Virus record (IMG/VR): IMGVR_UViG_3300026097_000012
Location: 72,953-127,549 of that record
Direction: 5' to 3' (one strand)
Source: a virus
Lineage: Duplodnaviria; Heunggongvirae; Uroviricota; Caudoviricetes
DNA: 54,597 bases
In this document: piece after piece, positions 24,180-53,242 of the stretch
How the letters are laid out: each line of letters opens with the position of its first letter
Numbering within the stretch: position 1 is the stretch's first letter
Program-made: the position numbers and the translations under genes
The notes under the pieces: model-generated
Seen by the model: only the letters and a program-made list of their open reading frames with translations
Databases searched by the model: none
Told to the model about the DNA's origin: nothing

Positions 24180-24700
24180 CTATACACGGACAGGGGAATC
24201 CTTTTAGTTATTTATCAGGAGATAGTGGTTCAAAAAATTAGAAATGAACCTCAGCTGAGCACCAGTCATGATATGTACCTCTACTTCGTCGTCGTCGCCA
24301 ACGTTTGTCCTGGAGCCCGAGGGAAGACGCCCAACCCACGCAACTGTTGACGTTGCCCCCAAACAGGCCGAACGGGCACACGTCGAAAGGGCACAGGCCG
24401 AACGGGCACACGCCGAACGGGCACACCTGGTACAGGAGGACAAGGGACTAGGTGGTATCGGGACCGTAGGTCCACGATCACCAGCTGTACTACGGAGTAA
24501 AACGTGTAGGAGAGGGGGACCAGGTGACGTGTGGCGAGGCCACGGCTGGCCCTGGAGGTCTATAAAAAGGTCTTATACGTCAAGTAACTAGGTCAGTACA
24601 ACTGAGCTGTACTACGGAGTAAGGAGGTATAGGAGATTCTTTTATTTCTTTATTAGTTTATATAGGAGTAGACATAATAGAAGGGTCTATAGTAGTTTTA
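24180..24700. repeat. GC-rich non-coding island with tandem repeats
   Basis: GCCGAACGGGCACAC-type units 24367-24426; AGCTGTACTACGGAGTAA at 24483 and 24606. Confidence 0.8.
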
Positions 24701-24708
24701 TTATTTCT

Positions 24709-24912
24709 TTAATTAGTGGTACCGCGCGGTGACTGGAAAGGGGTGTGAGAAAATCCGTGCGTTAGGAGTGGTAGGCGCTCTAAAACACTCTCAATTCCGA
24801 CAGGAAATATGTTGCCGTGGTTTACAACATAGGCGAGCTTTCCCTTGACTTTATACAATTCTGCGCCTGTACCTCTATAATAGAATTCTAGTCTTGCTCC
24901 CTTATCTCGCAT
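24709..24912 (-). CDS. hypothetical protein
   Basis: Last gene of - strand block. Confidence 0.55.
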   Translation of the reverse strand: MRDKGARLEFYYRGTGAELYKVKGKLAYVVNHGNIFPVGIESVLERLPLLTHGFSHTPFQSPRGTTN

Positions 24913-25130
24913 TCTAATATTTTTAATTGGGTTCCGATAGATTTGAGTCTCTCTTCCATTGTGATTAATAAATGAGGTGGAATTCTCTTCTTTATAGAGT
25001 AACCGGTTCCTGCGTTTTTAGTATACATTATTCCGTGGACTTTGAGTCTTAATACCCCTACTGATGTCAAACTATGTTGGAATAAGAGTTGCTCTATTAT
25101 GTGACCCTTTGTCTGATCTACTGGTGTCAT
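24888..25130 (-). CDS. hypothetical protein (DQTKG motif variant)
   Basis: ATGA coupling. Confidence 0.65.
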   Translation of the reverse strand: MTPVDQTKGHIIEQLLFQHSLTSVGVLRLKVHGIMYTKNAGTGYSIKKRIPPHLLITMEERLKSIGTQLKILECEIREQD

Positions 25131-25324
25131 TTGCGTATAATATTATCTTGAGTATTGGGGACTACGGAGTAAACTACAGGCAAATACGGTTCTATAGAAA
25201 AGAGGATACGATCTGCCTCACCGTATATTCCAGTCATAGTAGCCATTCTACCACGAATCTTTATCTCTTCAAATCCATTCCTATTGGAGAAATGTTCCTC
25301 TATTCTCTTACCTAGATCTTGCAT
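25127..25324 (-). CDS. hypothetical protein
   Basis: Coupled ORF. Confidence 0.6.
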   Translation of the reverse strand: MQDLGKRIEEHFSNRNGFEEIKIRGRMATMTGIYGEADRILFSIEPYLPVVYSVVPNTQDNIIRK

Positions 25325-25463
25325 TATATTCCTTTAATAGGATGAGTCTCATGTATGCCAATAATTGATATCATTACCCTATTGTTGGGTTTTATCTTTA
25401 TCCAAAATATCCGGCTTGGAGCCGTCTCTTCGAAGTGAGCTTCTATTAATTGGCCTTGGTTAT

Positions 25464-25691
25464 TCATCTCTTTTTATGTAACGGTGGTGGAACATTATAG
25501 AGTTTGCTTAGTGAGAGTAAATAACTATAAGAAGAAGGCATGCCTCCTGTAGCGACTTCCCCTATATGTAGATAAAATCCTTCCCAGTCATTGAGGTAAT
25601 AACCTTTTTCTTGCGGTCTAGGATCCGGGCTATACCTTACCTTGGTCCAGTCATAATCAAATGCTAATCTCATGTCGTCTTCTTCGGCCAT
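25464..25691 (-). CDS. hypothetical protein (PQEKG motif)
   Basis: Coupled ORF. Confidence 0.65.
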   Translation of the reverse strand: MAEEDDMRLAFDYDWTKVRYSPDPRPQEKGYYLNDWEGFYLHIGEVATGGMPSSYSYLLSLSKLYNVPPPLHKKR

Positions 25692-25955
25692 TTAATCTTC
25701 AAATAGGTCATTTAAGTAATCATCCCTAAAGCTCATGCCCCCTAATTCGGACTCTTCTGGTGCCTCGAGAACCGGGTCCTTCTTTAATTTAAAATCTGGA
25801 TAGATATCCTTTATGGTTTTAACTGCCATACGTACGGTAGATGGAGCCATTGTATGTCTTCCATGAGCATATCTAATAGCCATCCATGTGATATCATCTA
25901 AGACCTCCTTTAGCTGGTATCGTTCCACTTGAGATAATCCTTTTCTATGTTTCAT
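25692..25955 (-). CDS. conserved phage hypothetical protein
   Basis: WMAIRYAHGRHTMAPSTVR motif. Confidence 0.7.
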   Translation of the reverse strand: MKHRKGLSQVERYQLKEVLDDITWMAIRYAHGRHTMAPSTVRMAVKTIKDIYPDFKLKKDPVLEAPEESELGGMSFRDDYLNDLFED

Positions 25956-25958
25956 AGT

Positions 25959-26303
25959 TTACTTTTTTAGAAACCATTTTTCTCGATGGCTCTGGATAAT
26001 AATAAATAGTTCTTTTTCCCCTATTGGCTCTAGGTCCGATGGATCATCTGGTTTTACCAATTCGCGATATCTTTCCTTAAAATCTCCCTCGTGTATTAGT
26101 TGATATTTGTCTACATTATTTACTGTAAAAGTAATTAGCAGGGTAAACGGATTAATGAATCTACTGGACGGATTAGAGACGGTCTTAGGTGTTCCGGATT
26201 TCAGGAGTCTAGTTGCTCGCTCTTCCATTCTTTTGGCTATACCAAGCCAAACTCTTCCCAGTCCTGCCTTTAATCTATTACCTCCTATTTCAATTGTCTT
26301 CAT
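25959..26303 (-). CDS. hypothetical protein
   Basis: ORF in block. Confidence 0.65.
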   Translation of the reverse strand: MKTIEIGGNRLKAGLGRVWLGIAKRMEERATRLLKSGTPKTVSNPSSRFINPFTLLITFTVNNVDKYQLIHEGDFKERYRELVKPDDPSDLEPIGEKELFIIIQSHREKWFLKK

Positions 26304-26320
26304 CCTTATTGGTTTAATTT

Positions 26321-26656
26321 TTATACATCTGGATATTCTTTTGCCAATCCCTTTAATTGAGGATATCCCTTTATCCTTTTTATTTCTGAATGATACATAC
26401 TCGAACCGGTATCATAACTGTCGATCTCCCCTGTTGCTATTATTATACGATCAAATTTTATATTTAACATCGATGCCAGTTTCATCGGAATCGGTCCATT
26501 CAAAATAGAGTTTTCTATCTTAATATCCTCCTTGCATACTCTACACCAAATATGTTTTTCCCATTCTGACCAAGTAATGTCGTGTCCGCTATCACTCGGA
26601 CATTGGATGTCATATTCAAACGGATGATATGCATAGTGCCAGGTTCTCTTTTTCAT
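26321..26656 (-). CDS. Cys-containing hypothetical protein (PQLKGL motif; start reassigned to 26656)
   Basis: IQCP..WSEWEKHIWCRVC. Confidence 0.7.
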   Translation of the reverse strand: MKKRTWHYAYHPFEYDIQCPSDSGHDITWSEWEKHIWCRVCKEDIKIENSILNGPIPMKLASMLNIKFDRIIIATGEIDSYDTGSSMYHSEIKRIKGYPQLKGLAKEYPDV

Positions 26657-26660
26657 GTGA

Positions 26661-26987
26661 CTACGGAGTAACAATTTTAAGTATAGAATCCGACAGATCC
26701 AATTGTCTGTCCAGTTTTTGCTCCAGTTCTGAAACTCTTTGTGCCAGTTCCAAGTTTTGTTGTTGCAACACTTCAATTACACTGACACCTGAATAAGATG
26801 GATAAGATTGAATGGATGATAATGTTTCTCCAGCAGTATGATGAATAAATATAGTATCGTCATATGGATTCCGTCTAAATCCTCTAGTTTGAGGGCGATT
26901 ATTCTCGTGCACCGCTTTATTCAAACAATGGACCTGATTAGAACATCCCCTGATAATATCCAGTATTGGAGGTAAATTAAGTTCCAT
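26661..26987 (-). CDS. hypothetical protein (PQTRGF motif)
   Basis: C-terminal coiled coil. Confidence 0.65.
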   Translation of the reverse strand: MELNLPPILDIIRGCSNQVHCLNKAVHENNRPQTRGFRRNPYDDTIFIHHTAGETLSSIQSYPSYSGVSVIEVLQQQNLELAQRVSELEQKLDRQLDLSDSILKIVTP

Positions 26988-27255
26988 GGTCGAATGTTAC
27001 AGTATATTTCATTTTTAATTCAGTTAACATTGAGCTGAGATCATCAATTGACTTTCTATTGAAGGTATAGTTTTGTTTATAAGTATAATCTGTTTCAAGG
27101 TCATAATATCTAACGAATTCCTTTTCTCTAATACCTTTTGTATGTGGACGACAGGCTTTAAGTATTTCGTTAAATTTTGCACTCTCCTCTTCATTCCTTC
27201 CTGATTCGAGGCAAAGGAGTTTATACATTCTTCCTGTTATTGGCTTATCATTCAT
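26977..27255 (-). CDS. hypothetical protein (PHTKGI motif)
   Basis: Coupled ORF. Confidence 0.7.
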   Translation of the reverse strand: MNDKPITGRMYKLLCLESGRNEEESAKFNEILKACRPHTKGIREKEFVRYYDLETDYTYKQNYTFNRKSIDDLSSMLTELKMKYTVTFDHGT

Positions 27256-27778
27256 GTCTCTTTAGTTTATTTGGATAAGAAGTCAGTCCACGGTTCTGCG
27301 GGTTAACATCAGGTTTCCATTTGTTCTTTAATACTTCATTCCAGTAATTTGTTACAGTTTTAGTTCCATTCTTATGACTTGACCAAATACATGGATGTCT
27401 TTCTCTTGCAAGTTTAAGTCTTTCTTTTTTAGGGAGAGAATGATCTGTGTCTAGTTCATATGCTAACCAACATTCCCAATAATGATTTTCATGTTGAGCT
27501 TTAATAATTACGGCAATTTGCCATTTAAGGAATACAAATGATAACACAGGAGCCCATTCAAATCTAAATTCATCGTATTTTGTTTTCCATCCTAATGTAA
27601 CCCAATCGAATCCTATCTGCTTTGGAATCGCTTTTTGATGTCCAGGTTTATCCGGATTATCCACCCATCGTCTTGGTAGAAAATAAGGAGTTCCAATTGC
27701 TACCTTACCCATGTACCATTTAAGTTTAGGTCTCTTAAATGGGGAGCAAAATGCCTTTAATGGAGTGAACTTTTTCAT
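27248..27778 (-). CDS. Trp-rich conserved phage protein (PQNRGL motif; start reassigned to 27778)
   Basis: GKVAIGTPYFLPRRW..LGWKTKYDEFRFEW. Confidence 0.75.
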   Translation of the reverse strand: MKKFTPLKAFCSPFKRPKLKWYMGKVAIGTPYFLPRRWVDNPDKPGHQKAIPKQIGFDWVTLGWKTKYDEFRFEWAPVLSFVFLKWQIAVIIKAQHENHYWECWLAYELDTDHSLPKKERLKLARERHPCIWSSHKNGTKTVTNYWNEVLKNKWKPDVNPQNRGLTSYPNKLKRHE

Positions 27779-27780
27779 AA

Positions 27781-28071
27781 TCAATGTATGTATTCGCTTT
27801 GGTCTATTCCATATAGATTGTCTCTGTTTTTTCCTTCTATTTGAGCTTCGTGTTTCCACCCAGGAGTTAAATCTGATATATTAGTCAATGCTGACGTATA
27901 GTCCCGAAAATTGTCCCAATCACCTGCACAGTTATAAACTACTCTTACTGCAGAATTGGTGTGAGTAGGGATCTCCTTAACCATCCCGTTTTCCCACTTA
28001 CCTTCCGACATGTAGTGTTCAGGCTGGTAACATACTCTATCTCCGATATTTAATTTACTAATGTCTATCAT
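27781..28071 (-). CDS. SH3-like hypothetical protein
   Basis: IGDRVCYQP..ENGMVKE. Confidence 0.7.
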   Translation of the reverse strand: MIDISKLNIGDRVCYQPEHYMSEGKWENGMVKEIPTHTNSAVRVVYNCAGDWDNFRDYTSALTNISDLTPGWKHEAQIEGKNRDNLYGIDQSEYIH

Positions 28072-28080
28072 TTGCTCATA

Positions 28081-28320
28081 TTAAAATGGTAAATCAAGTG
28101 CTAGCATTTTACAATGTTCAGGATTAACTTCAAACTCTTCCATGACTTTTAGGATATCTTCGTTACTTGCTCCAAATGTAGAACACAGTTCAACTATCAT
28201 TGGGTCTTCATCCTCATCTGTGTCAGCTTCTTTGAATACGTCTATGAAATATCCAAGTACATGATCGAATCCATATGCTACTATCGTATCTCCGTCTATT
28301 TTTTTGCTATATCTACTCAT
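28081..28320 (-). CDS. hypothetical protein, paralog of 31735-31952
   Basis: TIVAYGFDHVLGYFIDVF. Confidence 0.75.
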   Translation of the reverse strand: MSRYSKKIDGDTIVAYGFDHVLGYFIDVFKEADTDEDEDPMIVELCSTFGASNEDILKVMEEFEVNPEHCKMLALDLPF

Positions 28321-28649
28321 AATCTTTCTATTGCTACTTCAAATGATTCAACTGTTCTTTGAGCAGGAAACTGATATGTGGTTTGACTTAAGGTATCAGA
28401 AGATCCGCTTATGGTTTCTTCATGGACGTAATCGTAATTGCGATATGATCTTTGAACTGAAATAACCTTAAACTTTCCACGTATTCCTTTTCTAAATAGT
28501 TTTCTATTTGGAAATCTAGCGTCATGCCAGTGTTCATCCATTAGGGTCGTTATCCAAATCTCTTCTCCTATTTCTGGAACCTTGTGAGTTGGAACAGTTA
28601 GAACATTATCTTCGCCTAACCAATAAGATATTTCTGATTTATCTTTCAT
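28317..28649 (-). CDS. hypothetical protein
   Basis: ATGA coupling. Confidence 0.7.
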   Translation of the reverse strand: MKDKSEISYWLGEDNVLTVPTHKVPEIGEEIWITTLMDEHWHDARFPNRKLFRKGIRGKFKVISVQRSYRNYDYVHEETISGSSDTLSQTTYQFPAQRTVESFEVAIERL

Positions 28650-28945
28650 ACGATTTCTCCTCTTTTAATTTCTTTCATTCGATTAATAAAATTAACTTCT
28701 TTTTGAATAAGAGATTTTACTTTCTTTTTAGAATGATTTGGATTAGTGATATCAATAGGAATTGAAAAAAGTTCGTTATACGTTACAACCTCTACATCTG
28801 GTCCAAATAGTATAAATTTTTTCTTCTTTTTTACAATAGGCGCAGTATCATAAAAATGAGTAATTTCCGAATCAAATGTTTCAGCTCCAGTCAGATCATA
28901 TGATTCATAGAAAAATAAACGTCCGTTAAATTCTAATTCTTTCAT
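28646..28945 (-). CDS. hypothetical protein
   Basis: Directly after - strand promoter. Confidence 0.7.
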   Translation of the reverse strand: MKELEFNGRLFFYESYDLTGAETFDSEITHFYDTAPIVKKKKKFILFGPDVEVVTYNELFSIPIDITNPNHSKKKVKSLIQKEVNFINRMKEIKRGEIV

Positions 28946-28949
28946 ATGT

Positions 28950-28957
28950 TAAATATA
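28950..28957 (-). promoter_or_regulatory. TATATTTA promoter without dyad
   Basis: TTTTTA-N17-TATATTTA on - strand. Confidence 0.7.
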
Positions 28958-28989
28958 CTAAATTAGATCGGGATTAAAAAATTAATAGA

Positions 28990-29172
28990 CTATAAATATT
29001 TAATTATTTTCACTGCCTCGTCATGAGGGTGCACGTCAAATACATTTTTCTTACATTTTTTACATTCAACCTCCCATTCTGATCCGTAATATACGTTTCT
29101 AAATTCATGTTTACATGAATTGGCAAGTCCACGAGTTTGAGGACGGAATATGACAGTTTGTCTACGTTTTCC
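28990..29172 (-). pseudogene. Start-less frame continuing in-frame after the TAA of 29173-29382 (PQTRGL, CxxC)
   Basis: GKRRQTVIFRPQTRGL..ECKKCKK..YL*. Confidence 0.55.
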
Positions 29173-29382
29173 TTAAACAGGATCTTCAATGTCAACATTG
29201 CCATCTCCTATTTGAATTCGTTGTCCATCCTCTACCACTAAAATAGTTTTAGTAACGTTCCACTGTCCGTCTCCTTTAGGAGCGTATTCAGGTTGAATGT
29301 GTACGTCGATTCGTAATTCACCATTAGCGAACATTTCTACAATCGCGTCTCGTACTTGTTTTCTAGATAATTTCTGTTCCAT
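29173..29382 (-). CDS. hypothetical protein
   Basis: ORF in block. Confidence 0.65.
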   Translation of the reverse strand: MEQKLSRKQVRDAIVEMFANGELRIDVHIQPEYAPKGDGQWNVTKTILVVEDGQRIQIGDGNVDIEDPV

Positions 29383-29412
29383 CTTAAATTGGGTTTCCTA
29401 GTTGTTCTCTCT

Positions 29413-29646
29413 TTACTCAGCCCCTTCGTCTGCGAACGGGTTTTCTTCAAAATGTATATGCGTGTTTCCATTAGCGTCAATCGATTCCAAAACTTTAACA
29501 TCGTCTATTGTATATTTCTTAAACTTCTTATTAAGATCTGTTAAGTCCTCGACTTTTACGATCTTTGATTTCTTTACAAAAACATCATCTAACAGTGCGT
29601 GGCCTGAATCTTCCCATCTTGAATATTTTACAAATACTGTCTTCAT
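29413..29646 (-). CDS. hypothetical protein
   Basis: ATGA coupling. Confidence 0.7.
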   Translation of the reverse strand: MKTVFVKYSRWEDSGHALLDDVFVKKSKIVKVEDLTDLNKKFKKYTIDDVKVLESIDANGNTHIHFEENPFADEGAE

Positions 29647-30455
29647 GATGTGAACCAGTTTAGTATACGTCTAAAGAATCCAGGATTCTTAATTGGCTCC
29701 GATTTTACTGGATCCTTGAACTCAGTTTCACCTTTATATTTCTTAACTGCTTTCTTAAGGTTCTCATTAGGAGGCTTAGGATTTTCAATAGATTCACAGA
29801 ATAATTCAGCATCCTCTTCAGATTTAATTATACTATCATCCCATTCATCGATTGCATCACGATCATCATCATCAAGATCAGGAAGACGTTCCACTGATTC
29901 AGGCTCAGTGAACATTAGAGATTCTTGTACTTTATCCATTTCTTCAGTATTTCCCTCTTCAATTCCAAGTAGTTCTCCAATTCCATCACCAATTATCTTT
30001 TTTCCTTTAGCAATATTCTCTCTGTCTACTTTGATATGGTTCTCACAATAGTCAGCCATCCATGCTAATTTATAAGGATCAGTAATTCCTTGTGCTTCTA
30101 ACATTGGTCTCCATTTCTCAATAAGATATGGATCATTAGATGTACCAAATGAATCTGCTGGCTTATCGAATCCTTCATGCATTACTACGGAGTCAACCTT
30201 TGGCTCTTCAGCTTCAACTGGCGCAGTATCATACACGTTTGGATCATCAGTTTCAATGATAACAAAACACTTGCTACTTCCTGGATCCTTAGGAGAGTAC
30301 GCATGATATCCATTACAATATTTGTTAGGATTCTTAGTAGACAAACACATGTCACCCTTATGAGCTACGATGTGTTCGTACCAATATCTAAATCCATTCA
30401 TTGATACTATCCCCTTTTCTGGTAAAATTTCTGTCACTTCTTTATTCTCTTCCAT
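29643..30455 (-). CDS. acidic mosaic protein with segment resembling a capsid-protein N-terminus
   Basis: LIEKWRPMLEAQGITDPYKLAWMADYCENH; ENPKPPNENLKKA. Confidence 0.7.
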   Translation of the reverse strand: MEENKEVTEILPEKGIVSMNGFRYWYEHIVAHKGDMCLSTKNPNKYCNGYHAYSPKDPGSSKCFVIIETDDPNVYDTAPVEAEEPKVDSVVMHEGFDKPADSFGTSNDPYLIEKWRPMLEAQGITDPYKLAWMADYCENHIKVDRENIAKGKKIIGDGIGELLGIEEGNTEEMDKVQESLMFTEPESVERLPDLDDDDRDAIDEWDDSIIKSEEDAELFCESIENPKPPNENLKKAVKKYKGETEFKDPVKSEPIKNPGFFRRILNWFTS

Positions 30456-30457
30456 TA

Positions 30458-30827
30458 TTCTGGTATTTCTAAATCTGGGTACATTTTACTTTCTATGTTA
30501 TGGTTTACCCAACCCATTAGTCTTGCAGTAGGGATCATTAAACGACATCCTTCCGGTAGAAGAATATAATATCCTCCATAGAAATGCACTCGGCTATTTC
30601 CAAAGTGTTCTTCGATCTTTTCGTATTCTTACTTGTTTAAGAATAATTGGAACCTTAATCCATTTCTATTTTGAACTATATGTACTCTTGAACCGAATGG
30701 GAAATCACAAGTTTCACGCCAATTGGAAGTAGTTTTTGGTCTACACAATACATATATAGATGATGTTTGTAATTAAAATATGATATGTCAGTTGCTTCAC
30801 AATGTGGGCATTTTTCTAAGTCCTTCA
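30458..30827 (-). pseudogene. Fragmented coding region
   Basis: MKDLEKCPHC.. start, frame change, in-frame TAA at 30629-30631 before EYEKIEEHFG..LEIPE*. Confidence 0.4.
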
Positions 30828-31088
30828 TTCTTTTACTCCTTTAATTCTGTCCAGTGATGTTTTCACACTTGATACAAATTCTCTAAGAACGACGATACGC
30901 CTCATATTATACGAAGGATGGTTCTCCCACTTAGATACTCGTATTAAATTGTCCGCGACAACATGCGCCATTTTAATAGCACGTCGATGTTTGTTATATC
31001 TAAATTGCCTTCTGCATTCTAAGTATATCTCATCAGCATACTTATCTACCTTCTCGTAGATTGGTGGTGCATATTCTCTTTCTACCAT
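30825..31088 (-). CDS. hypothetical protein
   Basis: ORF in block. Confidence 0.65.
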   Translation of the reverse strand: MVEREYAPPIYEKVDKYADEIYLECRRQFRYNKHRRAIKMAHVVADNLIRVSKWENHPSYNMRRIVVLREFVSSVKTSLDRIKGVKE

Positions 31089-31089
31089 G

Positions 31090-31518
31090 TTAATGTGCGC
31101 TCAAGTATTCTTCTTCTATTGGTAACTTTAACCATTCCTTTTTGATTATCTTAGACCCAGATCGAGGCTGACAATACCATCCGTATTCTGATTTATGAAA
31201 CCTGAGGTATTTAAATTGCCAGTTAGTTCCTACAACATTATTTCCTTCTCTGAATGATATCATTCTCCACTTAACATCAGGTCCACCAGATCGCTTCCTA
31301 AGATCATATAGGATCTCCTCTACTTCTTCGATAGTCATAAAGAATCTATCTCGATACTTTGCAACTTTTCCTAAGTATGGAATATTATCTCTATCATCTT
31401 CGAGTTTCCATCCACAGTGAAAATCTCGTGTATCGCAATTGATACTAACTATTTTATCTGATTTGAATGGTGTTGTTTCCAATGGTTGCCATTTATCTTG
31501 TTCTTCGTCTGATATCAT
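31090..31518 (-). CDS. hypothetical protein
   Basis: ORF in block. Confidence 0.7.
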   Translation of the reverse strand: MISDEEQDKWQPLETTPFKSDKIVSINCDTRDFHCGWKLEDDRDNIPYLGKVAKYRDRFFMTIEEVEEILYDLRKRSGGPDVKWRMISFREGNNVVGTNWQFKYLRFHKSEYGWYCQPRSGSKIIKKEWLKLPIEEEYLSAH

Positions 31519-31522
31519 ATCT

Positions 31523-31732
31523 TTAAAATTCGTGCACGCTTCTTATTGCTAAAGGATATCCATTCTCATCTGGTTCATCAATTTCGTCAACTATACTATA
31601 ATTTCTATAGTAACTTTCTTCAAACTCCTCTAATATATTTTCTAATTGCTCATCAGTTAAGATGGGTATCTTCGACATTAGAACTGCCATTGCAGTTTCT
31701 CTAGTTATATCGTGTGTTGATTTAATTCCCAT
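31523..31732 (-). CDS. conserved phage hypothetical protein
   Basis: MGIKSTHDITRE..YYRNYSIV. Confidence 0.7.
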   Translation of the reverse strand: MGIKSTHDITRETAMAVLMSKIPILTDEQLENILEEFEESYYRNYSIVDEIDEPDENGYPLAIRSVHEF

Positions 31733-31734
31733 GA

Positions 31735-31952
31735 TTAAAATGCTAAATCCATTGCTACTAATTCTCGATGTATTTCATCGACCCCATACTCTTCCATGAT
31801 ATTAAGTATATCTCCATTACTTGATCCAAACATAGAGCATTTTTCTAATATGACCTCATCTTTTTTGAGTCATCTTTTGCTTCTCGAAATACATCAATAA
31901 AAAATCCTAATGCGTGGTCGTGACTGTATGCTACGATCGTTCCATCTTTCAT
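31735..31952 (-). pseudogene. Frameshifted paralog of 28081-28320
   Basis: MKDGTIVAYSHDHALGFFIDVF..|..CSMFGSSNGDIL..MDLAF*; one base short in T run 31861-31866. Confidence 0.75.
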
Positions 31953-31990
31953 GATATTAATATACCATAAAATGTGAAACTTATAAAACT

Positions 31991-32599
31991 TTACAGTGCT
32001 GTGATTGTAGAATTATATTTCTTATAAACCTTTTTTGCTTCAGATTTTACATGAGAATAATAGTTAGGACTTTCGGCATAAGTTGAAGAAAGAGCAGATA
32101 GATATTGCTCTTCTGTCTTGGCTTTCCTCATGTATGTAGTTTGATAAAATGCATAATCTATTACACATTCTTGCCATGTATCATACACTGCATGTCCACT
32201 ATTTTCTCCCCTGTGTGTAGTCGCTCTTGATCTAGCACACTTCATTCCAAACATGTTATTATTATGTTTAAAGATATTACTCATGTAATGACCGGATTCT
32301 ATTCTAGCTTGTGCAATTACAATATGAGGAAATCTTACATTCATCCCGACTAGTAAATCATACATTGACTTTTCAGAAAAAGCTAAGTTACAGTCGACTA
32401 TAATTGGAACTTTTTCGTAATCAACTGTCTTTTGTTTATAAATGACGATATCAGTTGAGCTAAATAGTGATGCTCCTAAAATAAAGAATATAATTGCTGA
32501 GAGAGATATGTATAGCCAAATTGGACGTCTCACTCTCTTGTATTCTAATGATTCATTATCAATTGAATACACAGGTTTTGGTTTTCGTATCTTTTTCAT
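31991..32599 (-). CDS. GH73-like glucosaminidase-domain protein with N-terminal TM
   Basis: IAQARIESG..NNMFGMK..YDTWQECVIDY. Confidence 0.8.
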   Translation of the reverse strand: MKKIRKPKPVYSIDNESLEYKRVRRPIWLYISLSAIIFFILGASLFSSTDIVIYKQKTVDYEKVPIIVDCNLAFSEKSMYDLLVGMNVRFPHIVIAQARIESGHYMSNIFKHNNNMFGMKCARSRATTHRGENSGHAVYDTWQECVIDYAFYQTTYMRKAKTEEQYLSALSSTYAESPNYYSHVKSEAKKVYKKYNSTITAL

Positions 32600-32729
32600 A
32601 TTATTAAGTTTCTAATGAGTTAGTTTGAAGTCGATCTCTATATCATCTCGATCACACGAGACACCACATAGAAGATTCCGAATATAACTATCATAAATAT
32701 TAATCGTTTCCACAATGGTTGTTTATAAT

Positions 32730-33029
32730 TCATCTACGTCTATGATTAAAGTTTCGCTTATTGAAATTGCCTTTGTTGTAGTTTTGCTTTGGATTATATC
32801 TTTTGTGAAAATTAGGAGTATGTCTTGTAACAGGTTTAGTTGGAGGTTCTTTTTCTACTTCATCGATATCTACATAGTCATTTTCCCATATAGTATATTC
32901 CAGATTTGAGAACCTCATTCCTACTATAACTTCACCTTTTAATCCGCTTGTTCGCGGATCATCTGGCCAAGTATCTTTGTCAAACTCTGCCCATCTTGCT
33001 TCTATTTCGTCGTCAGGATTAAACTCCAT
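32730..33029 (-). CDS. hypothetical protein (PRTSGL motif; N/R-rich tail)
   Basis: Coupled ORF. Confidence 0.65.
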   Translation of the reverse strand: MEFNPDDEIEARWAEFDKDTWPDDPRTSGLKGEVIVGMRFSNLEYTIWENDYVDIDEVEKEPPTKPVTRHTPNFHKRYNPKQNYNKGNFNKRNFNHRRR

Positions 33030-33273
33030 CTCTTCCTCTAGTTTTAGGGTCTTGTGCTTTTTCTATTTCGTATCTTATCCACTTTTCTTCCCATTCAGTT
33101 TGAATTTCAGCGGCATCAGATAAGGCAAAATCTCCGCCTTTTTCTTTGAGTCTCTTTTGAACCGTGATGATTAAGTCTGCATGTTTATAATCCATACCCA
33201 TTCCACAAGATCTCAACGCTAAGTCAAGATACTTTGTATCGTCGTCGTTCTTATATTTATGATCTACCTTCAT
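33019..33273 (-). CDS. hypothetical protein (PKTRG motif)
   Basis: Coupled ORF. Confidence 0.7.
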   Translation of the reverse strand: MKVDHKYKNDDDTKYLDLALRSCGMGMDYKHADLIITVQKRLKEKGGDFALSDAAEIQTEWEEKWIRYEIEKAQDPKTRGRDGV

Positions 33274-33538
33274 TGTATTTTAATATTGGTGAATATATGT
33301 TTCCTGTAAAAACTGGATGAATCCCAGGTTCAGATATTGATGTCGATGTCGGAACCCTATGATGTATGTGTCCTGCAACTACAGTTTCAAATCTAGTTTG
33401 AAGTCCCTTTGTTTGGGGTCTTATGTCAGGAAATGGTAATACACAATCTTGATCTTCACCTAATGAAATCTCTGAACATGGATTAGTTCCAAAATCAGGT
33501 TCTGATAATAACCCCTTGATATGTGGACAGTGTTCCAT
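33257..33538 (-). CDS. small protein with RNR-active-site-like segment and two PxxKG motifs
   Basis: GTNPCSEISLGEDQDCVL; PHIKGL, PQTKGL. Confidence 0.65.
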   Translation of the reverse strand: MEHCPHIKGLLSEPDFGTNPCSEISLGEDQDCVLPFPDIRPQTKGLQTRFETVVAGHIHHRVPTSTSISEPGIHPVFTGNIYSPILKYNEGRS

Positions 33539-33606
33539 AGTTTTATTATACTCTACACAATTATTAATTTTAATCTAATGGTACCATTCATCACCAATGT
33601 AAGTCA

Positions 33607-33939
33607 TTACCAAAGAAGCGGCCCACCAACTAGAGCAACTGATGCTCCTTCTATGTTATGTTCTTTAATGAATGCTTCAAGTTGATCCCACTGTTTCATC
33701 ATCTGCTCTTTGCTTGTAGCATCCTGTGATGCGACGATGGCATACGTATGGTTTCCTGAATATGAATTACCCCAGTATGTGTAGCCAATTCCATCAGGAA
33801 GGTTTAGACATTCCATTACTTCTATATCATCCATTTCATCGATGACACAGTCTTCGTCCTGTTCATACATTAAATGCTTTACATCACTAGGATCTACTGT
33901 GAATCCTATTCCAAAATGTGCGTCGTGATCTACTCCCAT
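33607..33939 (-). CDS. acidic hypothetical protein
   Basis: Coupled ORF. Confidence 0.7.
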   Translation of the reverse strand: MGVDHDAHFGIGFTVDPSDVKHLMYEQDEDCVIDEMDDIEVMECLNLPDGIGYTYWGNSYSGNHTYAIVASQDATSKEQMMKQWDQLEAFIKEHNIEGASVALVGGPLLW

Positions 33940-34184
33940 TATCCTCTTCCTGAATTTAAAATTAATACTTGTGGTGCGCTGTCGTAATCCGGATCTCCGT
34001 CTTCATCCTTTGGCATATTAGCCTCTTCCCATGCAGTACCATCTGCACAGTTTCCAAAATAAGCTCGGTCTAAATAAACGGATTCCTTTGTTATAAGGTA
34101 ATCGTCCTTTGCTCTTACTGCGATCTGAGTGTCGAAGCTAATCCCTGCTTCAGTACACTGATCAATTAATTCCTGTATTGTCAT
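33939..34184 (-). CDS. acidic hypothetical protein
   Basis: Coupled ORF. Confidence 0.7.
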   Translation of the reverse strand: MTIQELIDQCTEAGISFDTQIAVRAKDDYLITKESVYLDRAYFGNCADGTAWEEANMPKDEDGDPDYDSAPQVLILNSGRG

Positions 34185-34498
34185 TATTCAAATTTAAAAA
34201 AGTTTATGTCATATGCTCTCATTCTCTTTCCATTATCATTGATCACTGGCACATACCAGTAAATGCAATATGGATCGTAGACAGGAGGGCCAGTCATTCT
34301 GTATTTCTTTCCTCGAGTTAAAACTTTAGTGTAGCTTGTGTCAATACATTCTATCCAATCATTTCTCTTGAATTGAGCCATGAATTCTGCCTTAGCCTTG
34401 TGACGCTTGACATTCTCTACCGATTCATATTCAGATATAATCTTCTGACACTCTTCTCTAAGTTCTAACGCTTTCTCGTATTGTCCTTTAGTAATCAT
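34184..34498 (-). CDS. hypothetical protein (SH3-like C-terminus)
   Basis: IECIDT..LTRGKKY..INDNG. Confidence 0.7.
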   Translation of the reverse strand: MITKGQYEKALELREECQKIISEYESVENVKRHKAKAEFMAQFKRNDWIECIDTSYTKVLTRGKKYRMTGPPVYDPYCIYWYVPVINDNGKRMRAYDINFFKFE

Positions 34499-34531
34499 TT
34501 AAATCCTTTCTTTTTACGATATAATATACCA

Positions 34532-34876
34532 CTATAGTGTGACTCTTTTCTTTTCAATTACTCCTCTAGTTTCTGCATATTCAACAGTGACTTCTAACCA
34601 ATTAGAATGATAAAGCTTTGTGTGAATTGATTCAGTGGCATTTCCATATGATGGAACGGTTCCCCAAAGTAACCTTCCGCTATCAGTATCTACATGGAAT
34701 ATTACATTTTCATTTAGATAATTTATAACTCTCACTCGAGTAACAGTACTTCCATTCATGTCGATGAAAATAAAACAGTCTTTTTTTGATCTGAGTCCCT
34801 TTGTATGTGGAGTTCCCTTTTTCAATATTCTAGTTATTTTCACCATCTTCTTCATCGGTATCATCTCCATATACAA
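34532..34876 (-). CDS. hypothetical protein (PHTKGL motif; true start probably 34855 or 34846)
   Basis: ORF in block. Confidence 0.65.
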   Translation of the reverse strand: MYMEMIPMKKMVKITRILKKGTPHTKGLRSKKDCFIFIDMNGSTVTRVRVINYLNENVIFHVDTDSGRLLWGTVPSYGNATESIHTKLYHSNWLEVTVEYAETRGVIEKKRVTL

Positions 34877-35027
34877 AATCCATGTAAAATAAATGTCCTA
34901 CTGGAGCTGACATTGGTTGGACTGAAACTAGCTCAGTTGCTATCAACGTTGGATCAAACAATGGACGTGTTTCAAGCCCTTTCGTTTGAGGACGAGTATA
35001 TTCTTTACCTGTCTTATCACATATCAT
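34830..35027 (-). CDS. 65-aa protein carrying a T4 gp23-like (Gol-region) segment after PQTKGL
   Basis: PTLIATELVSVQPMSAPVGHLFYMDFVYG. Confidence 0.75.
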   Translation of the reverse strand: MICDKTGKEYTRPQTKGLETRPLFDPTLIATELVSVQPMSAPVGHLFYMDFVYGDDTDEEDGENN

Positions 35028-35271
35028 ATCTCTCGTTCCATTGTGTAACTACTGAAACTACTTGATCCTCAAAGAATGGAACATTGAATTCGTCACATAG
35101 TTTTTTAATATCTCCGACGTGAATTGGTTTTGCGATAATCAATAGCTTGTCCATTTCCTCATTATATCCATCCCAATCGGCGGATCTCACACCTTTGGTA
35201 CGAGGATCCAATTTTCTTAGGATTCTAGATTCAACTTGAATATAGTCTATTAATTTTTCAGTCTCAGTCAT
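35017..35271 (-). CDS. hypothetical protein (PRTKGV motif)
   Basis: Coupled ORF. Confidence 0.7.
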   Translation of the reverse strand: MTETEKLIDYIQVESRILRKLDPRTKGVRSADWDGYNEEMDKLLIIAKPIHVGDIKKLCDEFNVPFFEDQVVSVVTQWNERYDM

Positions 35272-35283
35272 ATTAAAATTATA

Positions 35284-35478
35284 CTACAATTCACCCTCTT
35301 CTTTTAATTGATTAATAATCTGAGCAGCGGCGGCAGACGTGACGAAATAATTAGAGTTAGTCTTTCTTCCACGTTCAGCTATGATGTTGGCAGTCTCCTG
35401 CACCTTCGTCATTAATTCTTTACGCCTAGCAATTTCCCTAGTTTCTCCTTTCTTCTGAGGCTTAAACATTAACTCCAA
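35284..35478 (-). CDS. hypothetical protein (PQKKG motif)
   Basis: Coupled ORF. Confidence 0.65.
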   Translation of the reverse strand: MELMFKPQKKGETREIARRKELMTKVQETANIIAERGRKTNSNYFVTSAAAAQIINQLKEEGEL

Positions 35479-35786
35479 AGTTTAGATTCAGTGATTAGTA
35501 TTTTAACAGGACGTTCATGATGATTCGATAAATATTCTTGAATTGCATCGAGCGTACTTCCAGCCTTTCCGATTAAAATACCAGGACGTTCGAGCGTGAT
35601 CATCATTTCAGTTCGTCCATCAACTTCTGAGAATTCCAAGTTAGTAACTCCGAATCTAGAAATAGGAATATCAATCACTGGATTATATCCATTCCATCCT
35701 TCAAAGAATAATCTAAATGCATTCTTAATGCTTCTATATTCCGATTTCAATCGTGCTATATCAGCCCCCTTTGTTTGATTCCGCAT
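35469..35786 (-). CDS. type II KH-domain protein resembling ribosomal protein S3 KH
   Basis: ITLERPGILIGKAGSTLDAIQEYL..VKILITE. Confidence 0.75.
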   Translation of the reverse strand: MRNQTKGADIARLKSEYRSIKNAFRLFFEGWNGYNPVIDIPISRFGVTNLEFSEVDGRTEMMITLERPGILIGKAGSTLDAIQEYLSNHHERPVKILITESKLWS

Positions 35787-35931
35787 CTTGTATCTTTTTA
35801 ATTTCCTATTCTATTTCTTCTAATGTGTAGGCTACTTTTAACGTATTCCAGTATTTAAATATCCAAAGGAATGTGTGACGTTTCTCAAGATAATAAAACG
35901 GTTAGATATAGTTTAGCCTATAGTTATCCAT
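35761..35931 (-). pseudogene. ORF interrupted by two in-frame stops
   Basis: MDNYRLNYI*PFYYLEKR..EEIE*EIKKIQDAESNKGG*; stops at 35902-04 and 35806-08. Confidence 0.55.
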
Positions 35932-36613
35932 TGAAGATAATGTTTCCTAATCTCTTAGCTTTTACTTCGAACTCTTCTAAAGTTCCGTTGTTAGAAATCA
36001 AGATATCAGCGCTCTTTGTTGTGATATTGAAAGAATCTTTTGGTTCCCTTGGTAGACGATTAGATGCGTCAACCCAAATAATAAGATCAAATACTCCTTG
36101 ACGTAGACACTCATCTATCTCTTCTTTGTCTCTCATTCCAACGTAACAGTCAGACGACTTCATGATGTCTTTTGCTAAACGAGCTTTATCACGTTTGTTG
36201 TAAAGACAAATTAGATCATACCATTCAGATCTGTGATTTGCGCGATCATTGAAGCATTCTTCTGGAGTTTCATATCCGTACTTGTCTTTAAGAACTCGAT
36301 AGATAAAAATCTCAGATGCAGCCATTGAAGATGCTTTGAATTTCATTCCATGGTCTAGGTTGAAGATCTCAGCAAGGGTATCTTTACCATGACGTCCATG
36401 TCCAATGATAAGAAGACGTGGCATCTTCTTAGGTTTAGGAGCTGGCTTCCTCTCTTTAACTGGACGGTATTTTGGAGCATTTGATTTTGGCTCCTCCTTC
36501 TTAGTTTCTTTTTTAGGTTCATCATCGTTCCCTCGATCTTTAATATCTTTAACGATTGATGCTGCTCCTTTAATTGCTAGTACGTTTCGTACGAAATTGA
36601 ATCCTTCACTCAT
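35924..36613 (-). CDS. dNMP-kinase-like P-loop protein with N-terminal extension
   Basis: LLIIGHGRHGKDT..HRSEW..GMRDKEE..IWVDA. Confidence 0.75.
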   Translation of the reverse strand: MSEGFNFVRNVLAIKGAASIVKDIKDRGNDDEPKKETKKEEPKSNAPKYRPVKERKPAPKPKKMPRLLIIGHGRHGKDTLAEIFNLDHGMKFKASSMAASEIFIYRVLKDKYGYETPEECFNDRANHRSEWYDLICLYNKRDKARLAKDIMKSSDCYVGMRDKEEIDECLRQGVFDLIIWVDASNRLPREPKDSFNITTKSADILISNNGTLEEFEVKAKRLGNIIFNG

Positions 36614-52218: not shown

Positions 52219-53082
52219 TTATATGATTTTTTGTTGATGTACTAATTCTACGTCATCAATATCTCGAACTGAGTTCGTACAAAAGATTCCGTCTAAGTAT
52301 TCACTTAGTTTGTCAAATCCACCTGAGAAAATTCCATGTGTTACCACCAAGAAGATTTTATCATCTGGATGTTCTGATGTTGGGCGCTCTTCCTTGATTA
52401 CTTTTGCAAGTTCAATGAAGGTTCTTCCTCCATCACAGATATCATCTACGATAACGAAATTCATAGGATCTTTTACCCTGTCTAATCCGGGAACTGATAT
52501 GTGAGTGATTCTGCCGGTCTTGATATCTCGATGCTTATTTGCAATAATAAGATTATCGAGTGAGAAGTGAGCGGCAACTTCGTAAATTTTCTTTAAAGCT
52601 CCAGCATCTGGGCTAACTAATGTGATACGTTCTTCAGCATCGTAGGCACTATCAATTTGATTCAATGCAAACTTAACTAAAGAGATATTATTTATCTTGT
52701 AGTAATTGTTTAGACATGCTTCTAATACATCAGAGTGCGCATCAACTACCATCACCTCCTCATAATTCTGAGAATTAATAATTGGACAAATTACTGTCTT
52801 CAAATAGTTTGAACTACCTTCGATAAACTTTCGATCTGATCTTGCTCCTAAGAAATAAGGAACATAAAGTGAGATTCGCTTAAATCCTAATTCTCTCAAT
52901 GCAGACGTCGCACTTAAAATAAGTTCTAAATCAAGAAATGAATTTAGATGAGAGTGTATTACGATGTTTTGTTCGCTTTCTTCCTGTGGAAGTCGAATAT
53001 GGACTGTTACTGATTGCTGTCCATCTGGAAATCTAGAGATTGTAAAATCTTCGCTTCCTTCGTTATTTAGTTTTAATAACAT
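52219..53082 (-). CDS. ribose-phosphate pyrophosphokinase-like (NARP1 Adps candidate)
   Basis: FPDGQ, PYFLGARSDR, DAHS, SPDAGA, IVDDICDGGRTF. Confidence 0.9.
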   Translation of the reverse strand: MLLKLNNEGSEDFTISRFPDGQQSVTVHIRLPQEESEQNIVIHSHLNSFLDLELILSATSALRELGFKRISLYVPYFLGARSDRKFIEGSSNYLKTVICPIINSQNYEEVMVVDAHSDVLEACLNNYYKINNISLVKFALNQIDSAYDAEERITLVSPDAGALKKIYEVAAHFSLDNLIIANKHRDIKTGRITHISVPGLDRVKDPMNFVIVDDICDGGRTFIELAKVIKEERPTSEHPDDKIFLVVTHGIFSGGFDKLSEYLDGIFCTNSVRDIDDVELVHQQKII

Positions 53083-53242
53083 CTTTTCCGGCTTTAGTTA
53101 CTTCGTTAGCAGTTTTTGGATCAAATAATATGAAATGATTATTCGCAAATGTACCATGTGCTCCACTATTTAGAGCAATCTTCTTCTTGAATCTTTCAAA
53201 TTCCTCTTCTTTAATCTTTCCCCTTGTTTGTTTACCTGCCAT
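53063..53242 (-). CDS. 59-aa hypothetical protein (KQTRG motif variant)
   Basis: TAATG coupling with 53242-53586. Confidence 0.5.
   Translation of the reverse strand: MAGKQTRGKIKEEEFERFKKKIALNSGAHGTFANNHFILFDPKTANEVTKAGKDVIKTK

What the first reader, a model, noticed from the sequence alone, without database searches (positions are those of the whole stretch)
25101..35780. Shared P-[QHRK]-x-[KR]-G-hydrophobic peptide tag in about 15 unrelated small proteins
In-frame hits on the - strand: PQEKGY 25602, PQLKGL 26345, PQTRGF 26877, PHTKGI 27130, PQNRGL 27284, PQTRGL 29125, PRTSGL 32940, PKTRGR 33031, PQTKGL 33401, PHIKGL 33509, PHTKGL 34793, PQTKGL 34974, PRTKGV 35188, PQKKGE 35443. Variants: DQTKGH 25101, NQTKGA 35763, KQTRG in 53063-53242. 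Third codon positions vary freely, which points to protein-level selection. The tag sits N-terminally, internally or C-terminally on otherwise unrelated sequences, several of which carry pieces of core proteins. Inference: docking, cleavage or conjugation signal that addresses a diverse cargo set to one partner. I do not recognise it from any described system. Ascertainment caveat: I found it by reading proteins.
Basis: partly seen in the sequence, partly recalled or inferred. Interest (0 to 1): 0.85.

Follow-up and report, generated by a model that had tools for sequence, protein, structure and literature searches.

The report
Shared peptide handle on small phage proteins
About half of the small accessory genes in one block of an uncultured large T4-type phage of Bacteroidota carry the same short peptide, P-Q/H-T-K-G-L. 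It sits on unrelated protein bodies, is preserved in related phages by selection on the protein, and looks like an undescribed handle read by a partner I could not identify.

Summary
P-[QHRK]-x-[KR]-G occurs 13 times on the minus strand of window 24.7-35.8 kb. Shuffles expect 0.2-0.4, and there are no hits on the opposite strand. The tighter form P-[QH]-[TI]-[KR]-G-[LIVF] occurs 7 times there and nowhere else in the 127.5 kb record. Every DNA-level match lies in the coding frame.

In nine ortholog families from related metagenomic phages the tag persists while codons change freely. The Gly column shows 9 extra synonymous codons and no amino-acid change. Selection therefore acts on the protein.

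The bodies differ: a beta-sandwich, a helical bundle, a KH domain and three fragments of Gp23-type capsid protein. In two models the tag lies in a disordered N-terminal tail or a loop. Real capsid proteins lack the tag, so it is an add-on.

Best reading: a short linear docking motif for one common partner. Cleavage, modification and nucleic-acid-hook readings are not excluded. A 104-aa protein inside the block (82-87% identical across relatives) is a candidate receptor; the one complex prediction gave no verdict.

C-terminal copies are poorly conserved. I found no description of the motif. The scan has seen other shared peptide tags on other phage DNA, with different peptides.

The parts
35469..35786 (-). 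105-aa KH_2-domain protein; tag variant NQTKGA at residues 3-8 (35763-35780)
   Evidence: Pfam KH_2 1e-05, 25.7 bits against a cut-off of 22. Orthologs read TQTKGQ and IQTKGQ.
35284..35469 (-). 61-aa protein matching Gp23 profile positions 218-260; tag PQKKGE at residues 4-9 (35443-35460)
   Evidence: Pfam Gp23 0.0037 and phrog_138 0.003. Orthologs read PQNKGE, PYQKGE and PQQKGL.
35017..35271 (-). 84-aa helical protein; tag PRTKGV at residues 23-28 (35188-35205)
   Evidence: AF2 model with four helices; the tag lies in the loop between H3-15 and H30-46. D-P-R-T-K-G is invariant in 4 orthologs.
34830..35027 (-). 65-aa stand-alone copy of the most conserved (Gol) region of Gp23-type capsid protein; tag PQTKGL at residues 13-18 (34974-34991)
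   Evidence: Pfam Gp23 1.4e-08, profile positions 17-48. The full capsid proteins inspected lack the tag; other mini-proteins carry it upstream of the capsid-like part.
34532..34870 (-). 112-aa protein with a beta-sandwich body; tag PHTKGL at residues 21-26 (34793-34810)
   Evidence: P-H-T-K-G-L is invariant in orthologs of 46-53% identity. In the AF2 model residues 1-3 and 8-28 have pLDDT below 50 and residues 32-111 form seven strands with pLDDT about 87.
34184..34498 (-). 104-aa protein, far more conserved than its neighbours; begins MITKGQ; candidate common partner (inference)
   Evidence: 82-87% identity in every relative, where tagged neighbours fall to 24-39%. The family is confined to this clade. 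The complex prediction gave no verdict.
33257..33538 (-). 93-aa protein with two tags: PHIKGL (33509-33526) and PQTKGL (33401-33418)
   Evidence: Both tags are kept in the L010 ortholog as PHTKGL and PQNKGL. RNR-like hit phrog_367 at 0.0045 only.
33019..33273 (-). 84-aa protein with C-terminal PKTRGR (33031-33048)
   Evidence: Orthologs read PRTKGR, PRTTGN and PRTEGK, and PKPKE in L103. The tag is weakly conserved here.
32730..33029 (-). 99-aa protein; PRTSGL at residues 25-30 (32940-32957)
   Evidence: Orthologs read PQTKGL (L016) and PRTKGL (L103).
30825..31088 (-). 87-aa conserved protein ending in the variant DRIKGV (30837-30854)
   Evidence: 90% identical to the L010 ortholog, which ends NRIKGI.
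29418..29435 (-). SQTKGL in an alternative frame, across the end of the 77-aa gene
   Evidence: PSSM score 19.1. The maximum in 60 shuffled genomes is 17.0. Unexplained.
28993..29172 (-). 59-codon open frame without ATG, GTG or TTG, in frame after the TAA of gene 29173-29382; tag PQTRGL (29125-29142)
   Evidence: Two assemblies of this phage differ at 29159-29175, just upstream.
27248..27778 (-). 176-aa protein with PQNRGL near the C-terminus (27284-27301)
   Evidence: The L103 ortholog ends before the tag.
26977..27255 (-). 92-aa protein; PHTKGI at residues 36-41 (27130-27147)
   Evidence: Shares about 20 residues around the tag with the 112-aa protein.
26661..26987 (-). 108-aa ORF, not called by the gene finder; PQTRGF at residues 32-37 (26877-26894)
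26321..26656 (-). 111-aa protein; PQLKGL near the C-terminus (26345-26362)
25464..25691 (-). 75-aa protein; PQEKGY at residues 25-30 (25599-25616)
24888..25130 (-). 80-aa ORF whose ATG overlaps the upstream stop codon (ATGA); variant DQTKGH at residues 5-10 (25101-25118)
   Evidence: The gene finder started this gene further downstream.
53063..53242 (-). 59-aa protein outside the block; variant KQTRGK at residues 4-9 (53216-53233)

Best explanation
The peptide [R]-P-[Q/H]-[T/N]-[K/R]-G-[L/I/V]-[R/E]-[S/T] is a short linear motif. It is displayed on flexible N-terminal tails or surface loops of many unrelated small accessory proteins, all encoded in one co-oriented gene block. It most likely works as a docking handle: one phage or host component binds the peptide, so a diverse and fast-evolving set of small proteins, including mimics of the conserved core of the major capsid protein, is handled as one group.

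Shown: the enrichment, the coding frame, protein-level purifying selection, different bodies, exposed position, and absence from genuine capsid proteins.

Inferred: that the peptide binds something, and that there is a single partner.
For: - Enrichment: 13 hits against 0.2-0.4 expected. The tight form has 7 hits in the block and none in the other 116 kb.
- All 12 DNA-level matches are in frame 0 of the containing ORF.
- Across nine ortholog families the tag columns show 43 extra synonymous codons against 24 amino-acid variants. Gly shows 9 against 0.
- P-H-T-K-G-L is invariant in orthologs of 46-53% identity.
- The tag persists in more distant relatives. L016 carries tags on neighbours that are only 24-39% identical; L103 also carries four.
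- In the 112-aa model the tag lies in a stretch with pLDDT below 50, ahead of a confident beta-sandwich. In the 84-aa model it lies in a loop of a helical bundle.
- hhalign aligns only the 11-24 columns around the tag, and tblastn finds no other similarity between carriers.
- The full-length Gp23-type capsid proteins inspected read FTKFIFP..RRVFPNLIA at the corresponding place and have no tag. Stand-alone capsid-core mini-proteins of several lineages carry it upstream of the capsid-like part.
- One protein has two copies.
Against: - No partner is identified, and nothing measures binding.
- Position independence is weaker than it looks. In every family with orthologs the tag is N-terminal or in the first loop. 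The C-terminal copies lose the basic residue or the Gly, or are absent, in relatives.
- A basic residue directly before an invariant Gly also fits a protease site.
- The strict pattern occurs no more often than its control in four Bacteroidota genomes of the likely host groups, so there is no host protein model for the handle.
- The alignments behind the two structure models are shallow (4-6 rows).
Confidence: 0.5

Rival explanations
1. The tag is a processing site. A sequence-specific phage or host protease cuts at the [K/R]-G or G-[L/I/V] bond. This removes short N-terminal leaders, and cutting after Gly would expose Leu, Phe or Tyr, which could act as N-degrons.
For: - The layout P-x-x-[K/R]-G-hydrophobic, with invariant Gly and a basic residue before it, reads like P4-P1/P1'-P2' of a specific protease.
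- In the conserved families the tag lies within the first 3-28 residues, after leaders of variable length and sequence.
- T4-type phages do process many head proteins (PMC3012670).
Against: - No protease was found in the 127.5 kb record, though about half of the genome is missing.
- In the 84-aa family the tag follows a well-conserved helix that a cut would discard.
- The KH protein has only two residues ahead of the tag.
- The C-terminal copies would release only 3-11 residues.
Confidence: 0.2
2. The tag is a nucleic-acid hook. It would be a small basic turn, comparable in logic to an AT-hook, that tethers each carrier to DNA or RNA such as rRNA. The common partner would then be a nucleic acid rather than a protein.
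For: - The context is basic: R before P, and RS[KR] or xTR after it.
- The setting is disordered, the position is variable and the tag can occur twice, as with AT-hooks (my own knowledge of AT-hooks).
- Ribosomal protein uS12 of candidate-host-type Bacteroidota reads CPQ[KR]RGVCTR, which fits the tag regex including the x-T-R extension.
- One carrier is a KH RNA-binding domain.
Against: - The uS12 likeness was recalled first and checked afterwards. It is 9 residues with a large look-elsewhere effect.
- Several tags have acidic or neutral surroundings (PQKKGE, PQEKGY, NQTKGA-D).
- The AT-hook core R-G-R-P is absent.
Confidence: 0.12
3. The tag is an acceptor site for a post-translational modification, for example on the Lys/Arg or Thr, written or erased by a phage enzyme.
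For: A Macro-domain protein (36617-37087) and a P-loop kinase-like protein (35924-36613) lie directly upstream of the tagged genes. The kinase-like gene stays adjacent in all relatives whose contigs reach it.
Against: - Thr is replaced by N, K, E, L, I or Q in conserved copies.
- The basic residue is either K or R, and the invariant residue is Gly, which cannot be modified on a side chain.
- The kinase-like protein's only family match is a weak one to dNMP kinases, E 0.0032 and below the Pfam cut-off.
Confidence: 0.08
4. The tag is the capsid-targeting signal of this phage clade. On this reading the carriers are internal proteins that are packaged into the head and injected.
For: - In T-even phages a very diverse set of internal proteins shares only a short capsid-targeting sequence (PMC3012670).
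- This is a T4-type phage: T4-type terminase, Gp23-type capsid pieces and a BGT-like gene.
- Capsid-derived fragments are among the carriers.
Against: - The sequence is unlike the T4 signal.
- The 1121-aa protein next to the block starts with a segment ending in IYEDFMMAE, which resembles the T4 signal far better.
- No TATAAATA late-type promoter motif lies on the coding strand of the block.
- Some tags are internal.
Confidence: 0.07

Closest known systems
Capsid-targeting sequence (CTS) of T4 internal proteins (PMC3012670)
   Same: A T4-type phage in which many small, unrelated and fast-evolving accessory proteins share only one short peptide, mostly near the N-terminus.
   Different: The sequence is different: basic P-Q-T-K-G-L, against the hydrophobic and acidic MKTYQEFIAE type that ends in a Glu cleavage site. 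The tag is not strictly N-terminal and can occur twice. No late promoter motif lies in the block. A better CTS look-alike sits on the neighbouring 1121-aa protein.
Hub-docking short linear motifs such as the beta-clamp-binding motif QL[SD]LF and the PIP box (my own knowledge)
   Same: A 5-9 residue peptide in disordered regions of unrelated proteins, at N-terminal, internal or C-terminal positions, read by one hub.
   Different: The consensus is different, with no Q-x-x-L-x-F pattern. No hub is identified. The carriers are small accessory proteins rather than replication or repair enzymes.
Leader and cleavage motifs ending in a basic residue plus Gly, such as the type IV prepilin leader, and sortase LPXTG (my own knowledge)
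   Same: A short N-terminal basic leader ending in [K/R]-G. The letters P-x-T-(K)-G recall LPXTG.
   Different: There is no hydrophobic segment after the Gly, no Glu at +5, no signal peptide and no C-terminal membrane anchor. An extra residue stands between T and G.
Shared terminal peptide tags on phage accessory proteins noted earlier in this scan (e1-4772764, e1-1618766, e1-831089, e1-3433680; unpublished AI notes)
   Same: Many unrelated small proteins of one phage clade carry one clade-specific short peptide, and the receptor is unknown.
   Different: Those tags are C-terminal tails with other sequences. This one is mainly N-terminal or in a loop, and it is fused to capsid-core mimics.
Gol region of T4 gp23, the most conserved part of the capsid protein, which binds EF-Tu (PMC3014915)
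   Same: The 65-aa carrier is a stand-alone copy of this region.
   Different: This concerns the body of one carrier, not the tag. The genuine capsid proteins inspected lack the tag.

Membership tests
T4 capsid-targeting sequence | Lies directly at the N-terminus of every carrier | tested here: not met
   The tags start at residues 3 to 160, and one protein has two.
T4 capsid-targeting sequence | Consensus of the MKTYQEFIAE type ending in an (L/I)-x-E protease site | tested here: not met
   The tag is P-[QH]-T-[KR]-G-[LIV]. The T4 consensus is from my own knowledge.
T4 capsid-targeting sequence | Carriers are found inside virions | not testable with these tools
   Needs virion proteomics.
Sortase LPXTG sorting signal | LPXTG followed by a hydrophobic stretch and a basic tail, on proteins with a signal peptide | tested here: not met
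   No Leu stands before the Pro, a K/R stands between T and G, and no hydrophobic segment follows.
Type IV prepilin leader | G|F-T-L-x-E followed by about 20 hydrophobic residues | tested here: not met
   The residues after the Gly are polar or basic (RSKK, ETRP, QTRF).
Beta-clamp-binding motif | Q-L-[SD]-L-F or Q-x-x-L-x-F | tested here: not met
   Q is followed by T-K-G, and there are no paired hydrophobic positions.
AT-hook | R-G-R-P core | tested here: not met
   No R-G-R-P occurs in any copy.
Gp23 major capsid protein (PF07068), for three of the carriers | Match to the family profile | tested here: met
   65-aa: 35 bits against a cut-off of 24.4. 61-aa: 17.1 bits, below the cut-off. A third piece lies at genome 72472-72585.
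Gp23 major capsid protein (PF07068), for three of the carriers | Full-length HK97-type capsid fold of about 400-500 residues | tested here: not met
   The carriers have 48-65 residues and cover 32-43 of the 376 profile positions. They are fragments, not capsid proteins.
KH_2 domain (PF07650), for the 105-aa carrier | Match above Pfam's gathering score | tested here: met
   25.7 bits against 22.
Ribonucleotide reductase, for the 93-aa carrier | Significant match to an RNR profile | tested here: inconclusive
   phrog_367 at E 0.0045 over 22 residues. No Pfam hit at E up to 1. The PDB search returns only repeat proteins, through summed weak matches.

The most novel reading that the evidence does not exclude
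The block encodes a family of modular adaptors or decoys. Each joins one common handle (the tag) to a different bait. Several baits are mimics of the most conserved segment of an essential protein, such as the Gol core and two other segments of the capsid protein, and a KH domain. Through the handle, a single hub could be brought to many targets. That hub might be the 104-aa protein that barely changes across the clade. Alternatively, the mimics could jam capsid-sensing host immunity or the head assembly of rival T4-type phages.
Probability: 0.15. Interest if true: 0.85.

Novelty: new variant of a known kind. Interest (0 to 1): 0.62.

Why it matters
Most small accessory genes of large phages have no assigned function. 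A peptide that is shared and strongly conserved on about half of the genes in one block gives a single experimental entry point. One peptide pull-down could name the partner and so place some 16 orphan proteins in one pathway.

The link between the tag and stand-alone copies of the capsid protein's most conserved segment is of wider interest. That segment is a known trigger of abortive-infection immunity in T4 (PMC3014915). Free-standing, tagged copies of it have not, as far as I could find, been described. It would also add a mainly N-terminal or loop-borne example to the shared peptide tags this scan keeps finding on phage DNA.

Tried and rejected
- A DNA- or RNA-level motif (promoter, repeat, recombination site, slippery site) is rejected. 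All matches are in the coding frame, the flanks are unalike, and third positions and codon families vary.
- An alternative genetic code as the cause of the small ORFs: no stop-codon reassignment stands out. TGA=W and TAG=Q leave the longest frames almost unchanged.
- Paralogy of the carriers is rejected. tblastn and hhalign align only the tag.
- Inheritance of the tag from the capsid protein is rejected. The full-length relatives inspected lack it, and in P0083 and P0023 it lies upstream of the complete capsid-like segment.
- A copy of a conserved host motif: the strict pattern gives 1 hit against 2 control hits in four Bacteroidota genomes.
- Complex prediction of the 104-aa protein with the tagged tail of the 112-aa protein gave no verdict, score 0.01.
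- Searches that found nothing: INPHARED phages by DNA and by protein; IMG/VR by protein and by pattern; longer relatives of the 65-aa protein by word index; the literature for the hexapeptides.
- The whole records behind L014 and L103 could not be searched, so the phage's own capsid protein and prohead protease were not seen.
- The match of the 93-aa protein to 'Pizza' propeller designs is a sum of weak repeats and is not evidence.
- Of the 8 metagenome pattern hits, about 3 (L097, L101, L104) are judged chance matches in unrelated high-GC DNA. L100 and L102 are undecided. L103 is a new relative, and L098 and L099 repeat contigs already held.


Full report
SETTING. The window is the last 54.6 kb of a 127,549-base virus record that CheckV rates about 51% complete. 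The record carries a T4-type large terminase, two sigma factors, a T4 beta-glucosyltransferase-like gene and a PurA-like gene. It also has a CHAP-glucosaminidase lysin, a DNA ligase, NAD-salvage genes, a tyrosine integrase and a protein with a type IX secretion sorting domain. The nearest bacterial relatives of that last protein are in Saprospiraceae and Cytophagales at 27-48% identity, so a Bacteroidota host is likely but not shown. The same phage lies on a 283,971-base NCBI contig that I could not search as a whole. No cultured phage and no IMG/VR contig is related.

Every listed hit is present on the minus strand, with PQEKGY at 25599, 3 bases from the stated place. A six-frame scan of the whole record finds 25 matches to P-[QHRK]-x-[KR]-G. 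Thirteen of them lie on the minus strand between 25599 and 35460.
- In that 11.1 kb stretch, nucleotide shuffles give 0.38 hits (at most 3 in 500). Shuffling residues within the 36 proteins gives 0.20 (at most 4 in 2000). The opposite strand has none.
- The tighter form P-[QH]-[TI]-[KR]-G-[LIVF] occurs 7 times in the block and nowhere in the other 116 kb, on either strand.
A degenerate DNA form of the motif, searched without regard to frame, hits 12 times in the block, and all 12 are in frame 0 of the ORF that contains them.
- Counting loose variants, 16 of the 36 ORFs I listed for the block carry a tag.

SELECTION ACTS ON THE PROTEIN. Among the copies in the window, Leu is written with both CTN and TTR codons, Arg with both AGA and CGT, and all four bases occur at the third positions of Pro, Thr and Gly.
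- Relatives came from one protein search and from contig look-ups: L002-L010, L016, L018 and L103.
- The 112-aa family is only 46-53% identical overall, yet P-H-T-K-G-L is invariant.
- Across nine ortholog families, the six tag columns show 43 extra synonymous codons against 24 amino-acid variants. The Gly column shows 9 against 0, and the Pro column 8 against 3.
- In L016 the tagged neighbours have fallen to 24-39% identity, and the tags are still there.
All of them fail to materialise.

ANATOMY OF THE TAG. Aligned copies give [R]-P-[Q/H]-[T/N]-[K/R]-G-[L/I/V], often followed by R-S-[K/R] or E-T-R. Gly is invariant, apart from a few decayed C-terminal copies in relatives. Pro and the basic residue are nearly invariant. 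Thr can be N, K, E, L, I or Q.
- In the 112-aa protein the AF2 model has pLDDT below 50 for residues 1-3 and 8-28, which include the tag at 21-26. Residues 32-111 form a confident seven-strand beta-sandwich. Foldseek finds only generic sandwiches for it.
- In the 84-aa protein the tag at 23-28 sits in the loop between the first two helices of a four-helix model.
- Both models rest on shallow alignments.

THE CARRIERS ARE UNRELATED. Their mutual tblastn matches are confined to 10-26 residues around the tag, and profile-profile comparison aligns only 11-24 columns there. The bodies differ.
- One carrier has a KH_2 domain above Pfam's cut-off.
- The others include a beta-sandwich, a helical bundle and a coiled-coil tail.
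- Three are pieces of Gp23-type capsid protein. The 65-aa protein covers profile positions 17-48 (1.4e-08), which is the Gol region, the most conserved part of gp23 (PMC3014915). The 61-aa protein covers positions 218-260 (0.0037). A 48-aa ORF just upstream of the window reads PRIKGL, followed by a Gp23-like segment as judged by eye; an HMM match to positions 273-310 lies just upstream of that ORF.
- The RNR reading of the 93-aa protein rests on one PHROG hit at 0.0045 and stays open.

THE TAG IS AN ADD-ON. A profile of the 65-aa family, searched against 1.8 billion representatives, found 512 proteins at E up to 0.001. The full-length capsid proteins inspected read ..FTKFIFP..RRVFPNLIA..VSVQPM.. 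and have no tag. Small stand-alone versions do carry it: RPQTKGLETHP, RPQTKGIETHP and WPHNKGYRENP. In P0083, and in P0023 with its degenerate PQEKEGL form, the tag precedes the complete capsid-like segment. So the tag was not inherited from the capsid protein.
- Gain or loss is also visible. The L103 ortholog of the 176-aa protein ends before the tag.
- The C-terminal tag of the 84-aa family degrades to PRTTG, PRTEG or PKPKE.
- In L008 and L009 the capsid mini-gene carries a premature stop, and in L009 its tag has drifted to NQTKGF.

WHAT IT MOST LIKELY DOES. A conserved, exposed peptide of 6-9 residues on unrelated bodies is what a short linear motif looks like. I rate the readings as follows.
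- Docking to one partner is the most likely, about 0.5. It accounts for tails, loops and double copies alike.
- A processing site is the main rival, about 0.2. A basic residue before an invariant Gly, and N-terminal leaders of variable length, fit it. The conserved helix ahead of the tag in the 84-aa family does not. No protease is in the part of the genome I could read.
- A nucleic-acid hook is about 0.12. The tag regex, with its x-T-R extension, fits CPQ[KR]RGVCTR of ribosomal protein uS12 in three Bacteroidota genomes. I recalled that likeness before checking it, and it is only nine residues.
- A modification site is about 0.08. It is weakened because the only invariant residue is Gly.
- The T4-style capsid-targeting reading is about 0.07. 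It is weakened by the different sequence, by internal copies, by the absence of TATAAATA on the coding strand of the block, and by a much better look-alike of the T4 signal at the N-terminus of the neighbouring 1121-aa protein.

A CANDIDATE PARTNER. The 104-aa protein at 34184-34498 sits in the middle of the tagged genes. It is 82-87% identical in every relative, even where its neighbours are barely recognisable, and its family does not extend beyond this clade. Its C-terminal half may be a small SH3-like barrel, but that is a weak lead with TM below 0.5. The single complex prediction, with the tagged tail of the 112-aa protein, gave no verdict and counts neither way.

KNOWN RELATIVES AND NOVELTY. 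The closest described analogue is the capsid-targeting sequence of T-even internal proteins, a diverse set of small proteins sharing only one short peptide (PMC3012670). Hub-docking motifs such as clamp-binding peptides share the logic. The tag fails the defining features of each family I tested. The hexapeptides appear in no relevant paper of the library. Earlier notes of this scan report other shared peptide tags on other phage DNA, all C-terminal and with other sequences. This is therefore a new variant of a known kind, and its receptor is unknown.

LIMITS. The host is unknown and about half of the genome was not seen. Nothing here measures binding.

Noticed in passing
window 34184-34498 (-): This 104-aa protein is 82-87% identical across all relatives, while adjacent genes drop to 24-60%. 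It has no Pfam family and its relatives are confined to this clade. Its C-terminal half may be SH3-like.
   Followed up: partly
window 29159-29175 and 28993-29172 (-): Two assemblies of the same phage are 99.95% identical over 20.6 kb. They differ in only two places: here, with three changes just upstream of a tagged open frame that has no canonical start and follows a TAA in frame, and in the tandem repeat at 24383-24403.
   Followed up: partly
window 29418-29435 (-): A strong tag copy (RSQTKGLSKER) lies in an alternative frame, overlapping the end of the 77-aa gene. It could be a relic, an overlapping ORF or a frameshift product.
   Followed up: no
window 36617-37087 (-): This 156-aa protein matches the Macro (ADP-ribose binding or hydrolysing) domain at Pfam's cut-off. 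It lies just upstream of a P-loop dNMP-kinase-like gene and the tagged block. The phage also carries NAD-salvage genes (NAPRTase and a PRPP-synthetase-like gene).
   Followed up: no
window 31735-31952 (-) and 28081-28320 (-): A second copy of the 79-aa gene is split into two ORFs in different frames. This is a frameshifted paralog.
   Followed up: no
window 53616-54419 (-); L014: The 267-aa protein is a tyrosine integrase. On the 284 kb NCBI contig, lambdoid-type genes (ERF, NinB, SSB, NinG) follow beyond the end of this record. The large contig may therefore join two elements, or the phage may be temperate.
   Followed up: no
P0006-P0155; L017:10001-10231: Stand-alone mini-proteins consisting of the Gol region of Gp23-type capsid protein occur in several unrelated phage contexts. 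One sits among glycosyltransferase and sialic-acid genes. Some have the tag and some do not.
   Followed up: partly
L094-L096 (uS12 genes of Bacteroidota genomes): Ribosomal protein uS12 reads CPQ[KR]RGVCTR, which fits the extended tag regex P-[QH]-x-[KR]-G-[LIV]-x-T-R. This may be coincidence.
   Followed up: partly
genome 68494-68934, 71982-72203 and 72592-72738 (+), just upstream of the window: Weaker tag copies (RPQEKGL, RPQSTGI, PRIKGL) lie on plus-strand small ORFs. The last ORF also reads, by eye, like a capsid-protein segment; the Gp23 HMM match lies just upstream of it, at genome 72472-72585. Individually their scores are within the range of shuffled genomes.
   Followed up: partly
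window 41652-45017 (+): The N-terminus of the 1121-aa protein contains a segment ending in IYEDFMMAE that resembles the T4 capsid-targeting sequence. A proline- and lysine-rich stretch follows.
   Followed up: no
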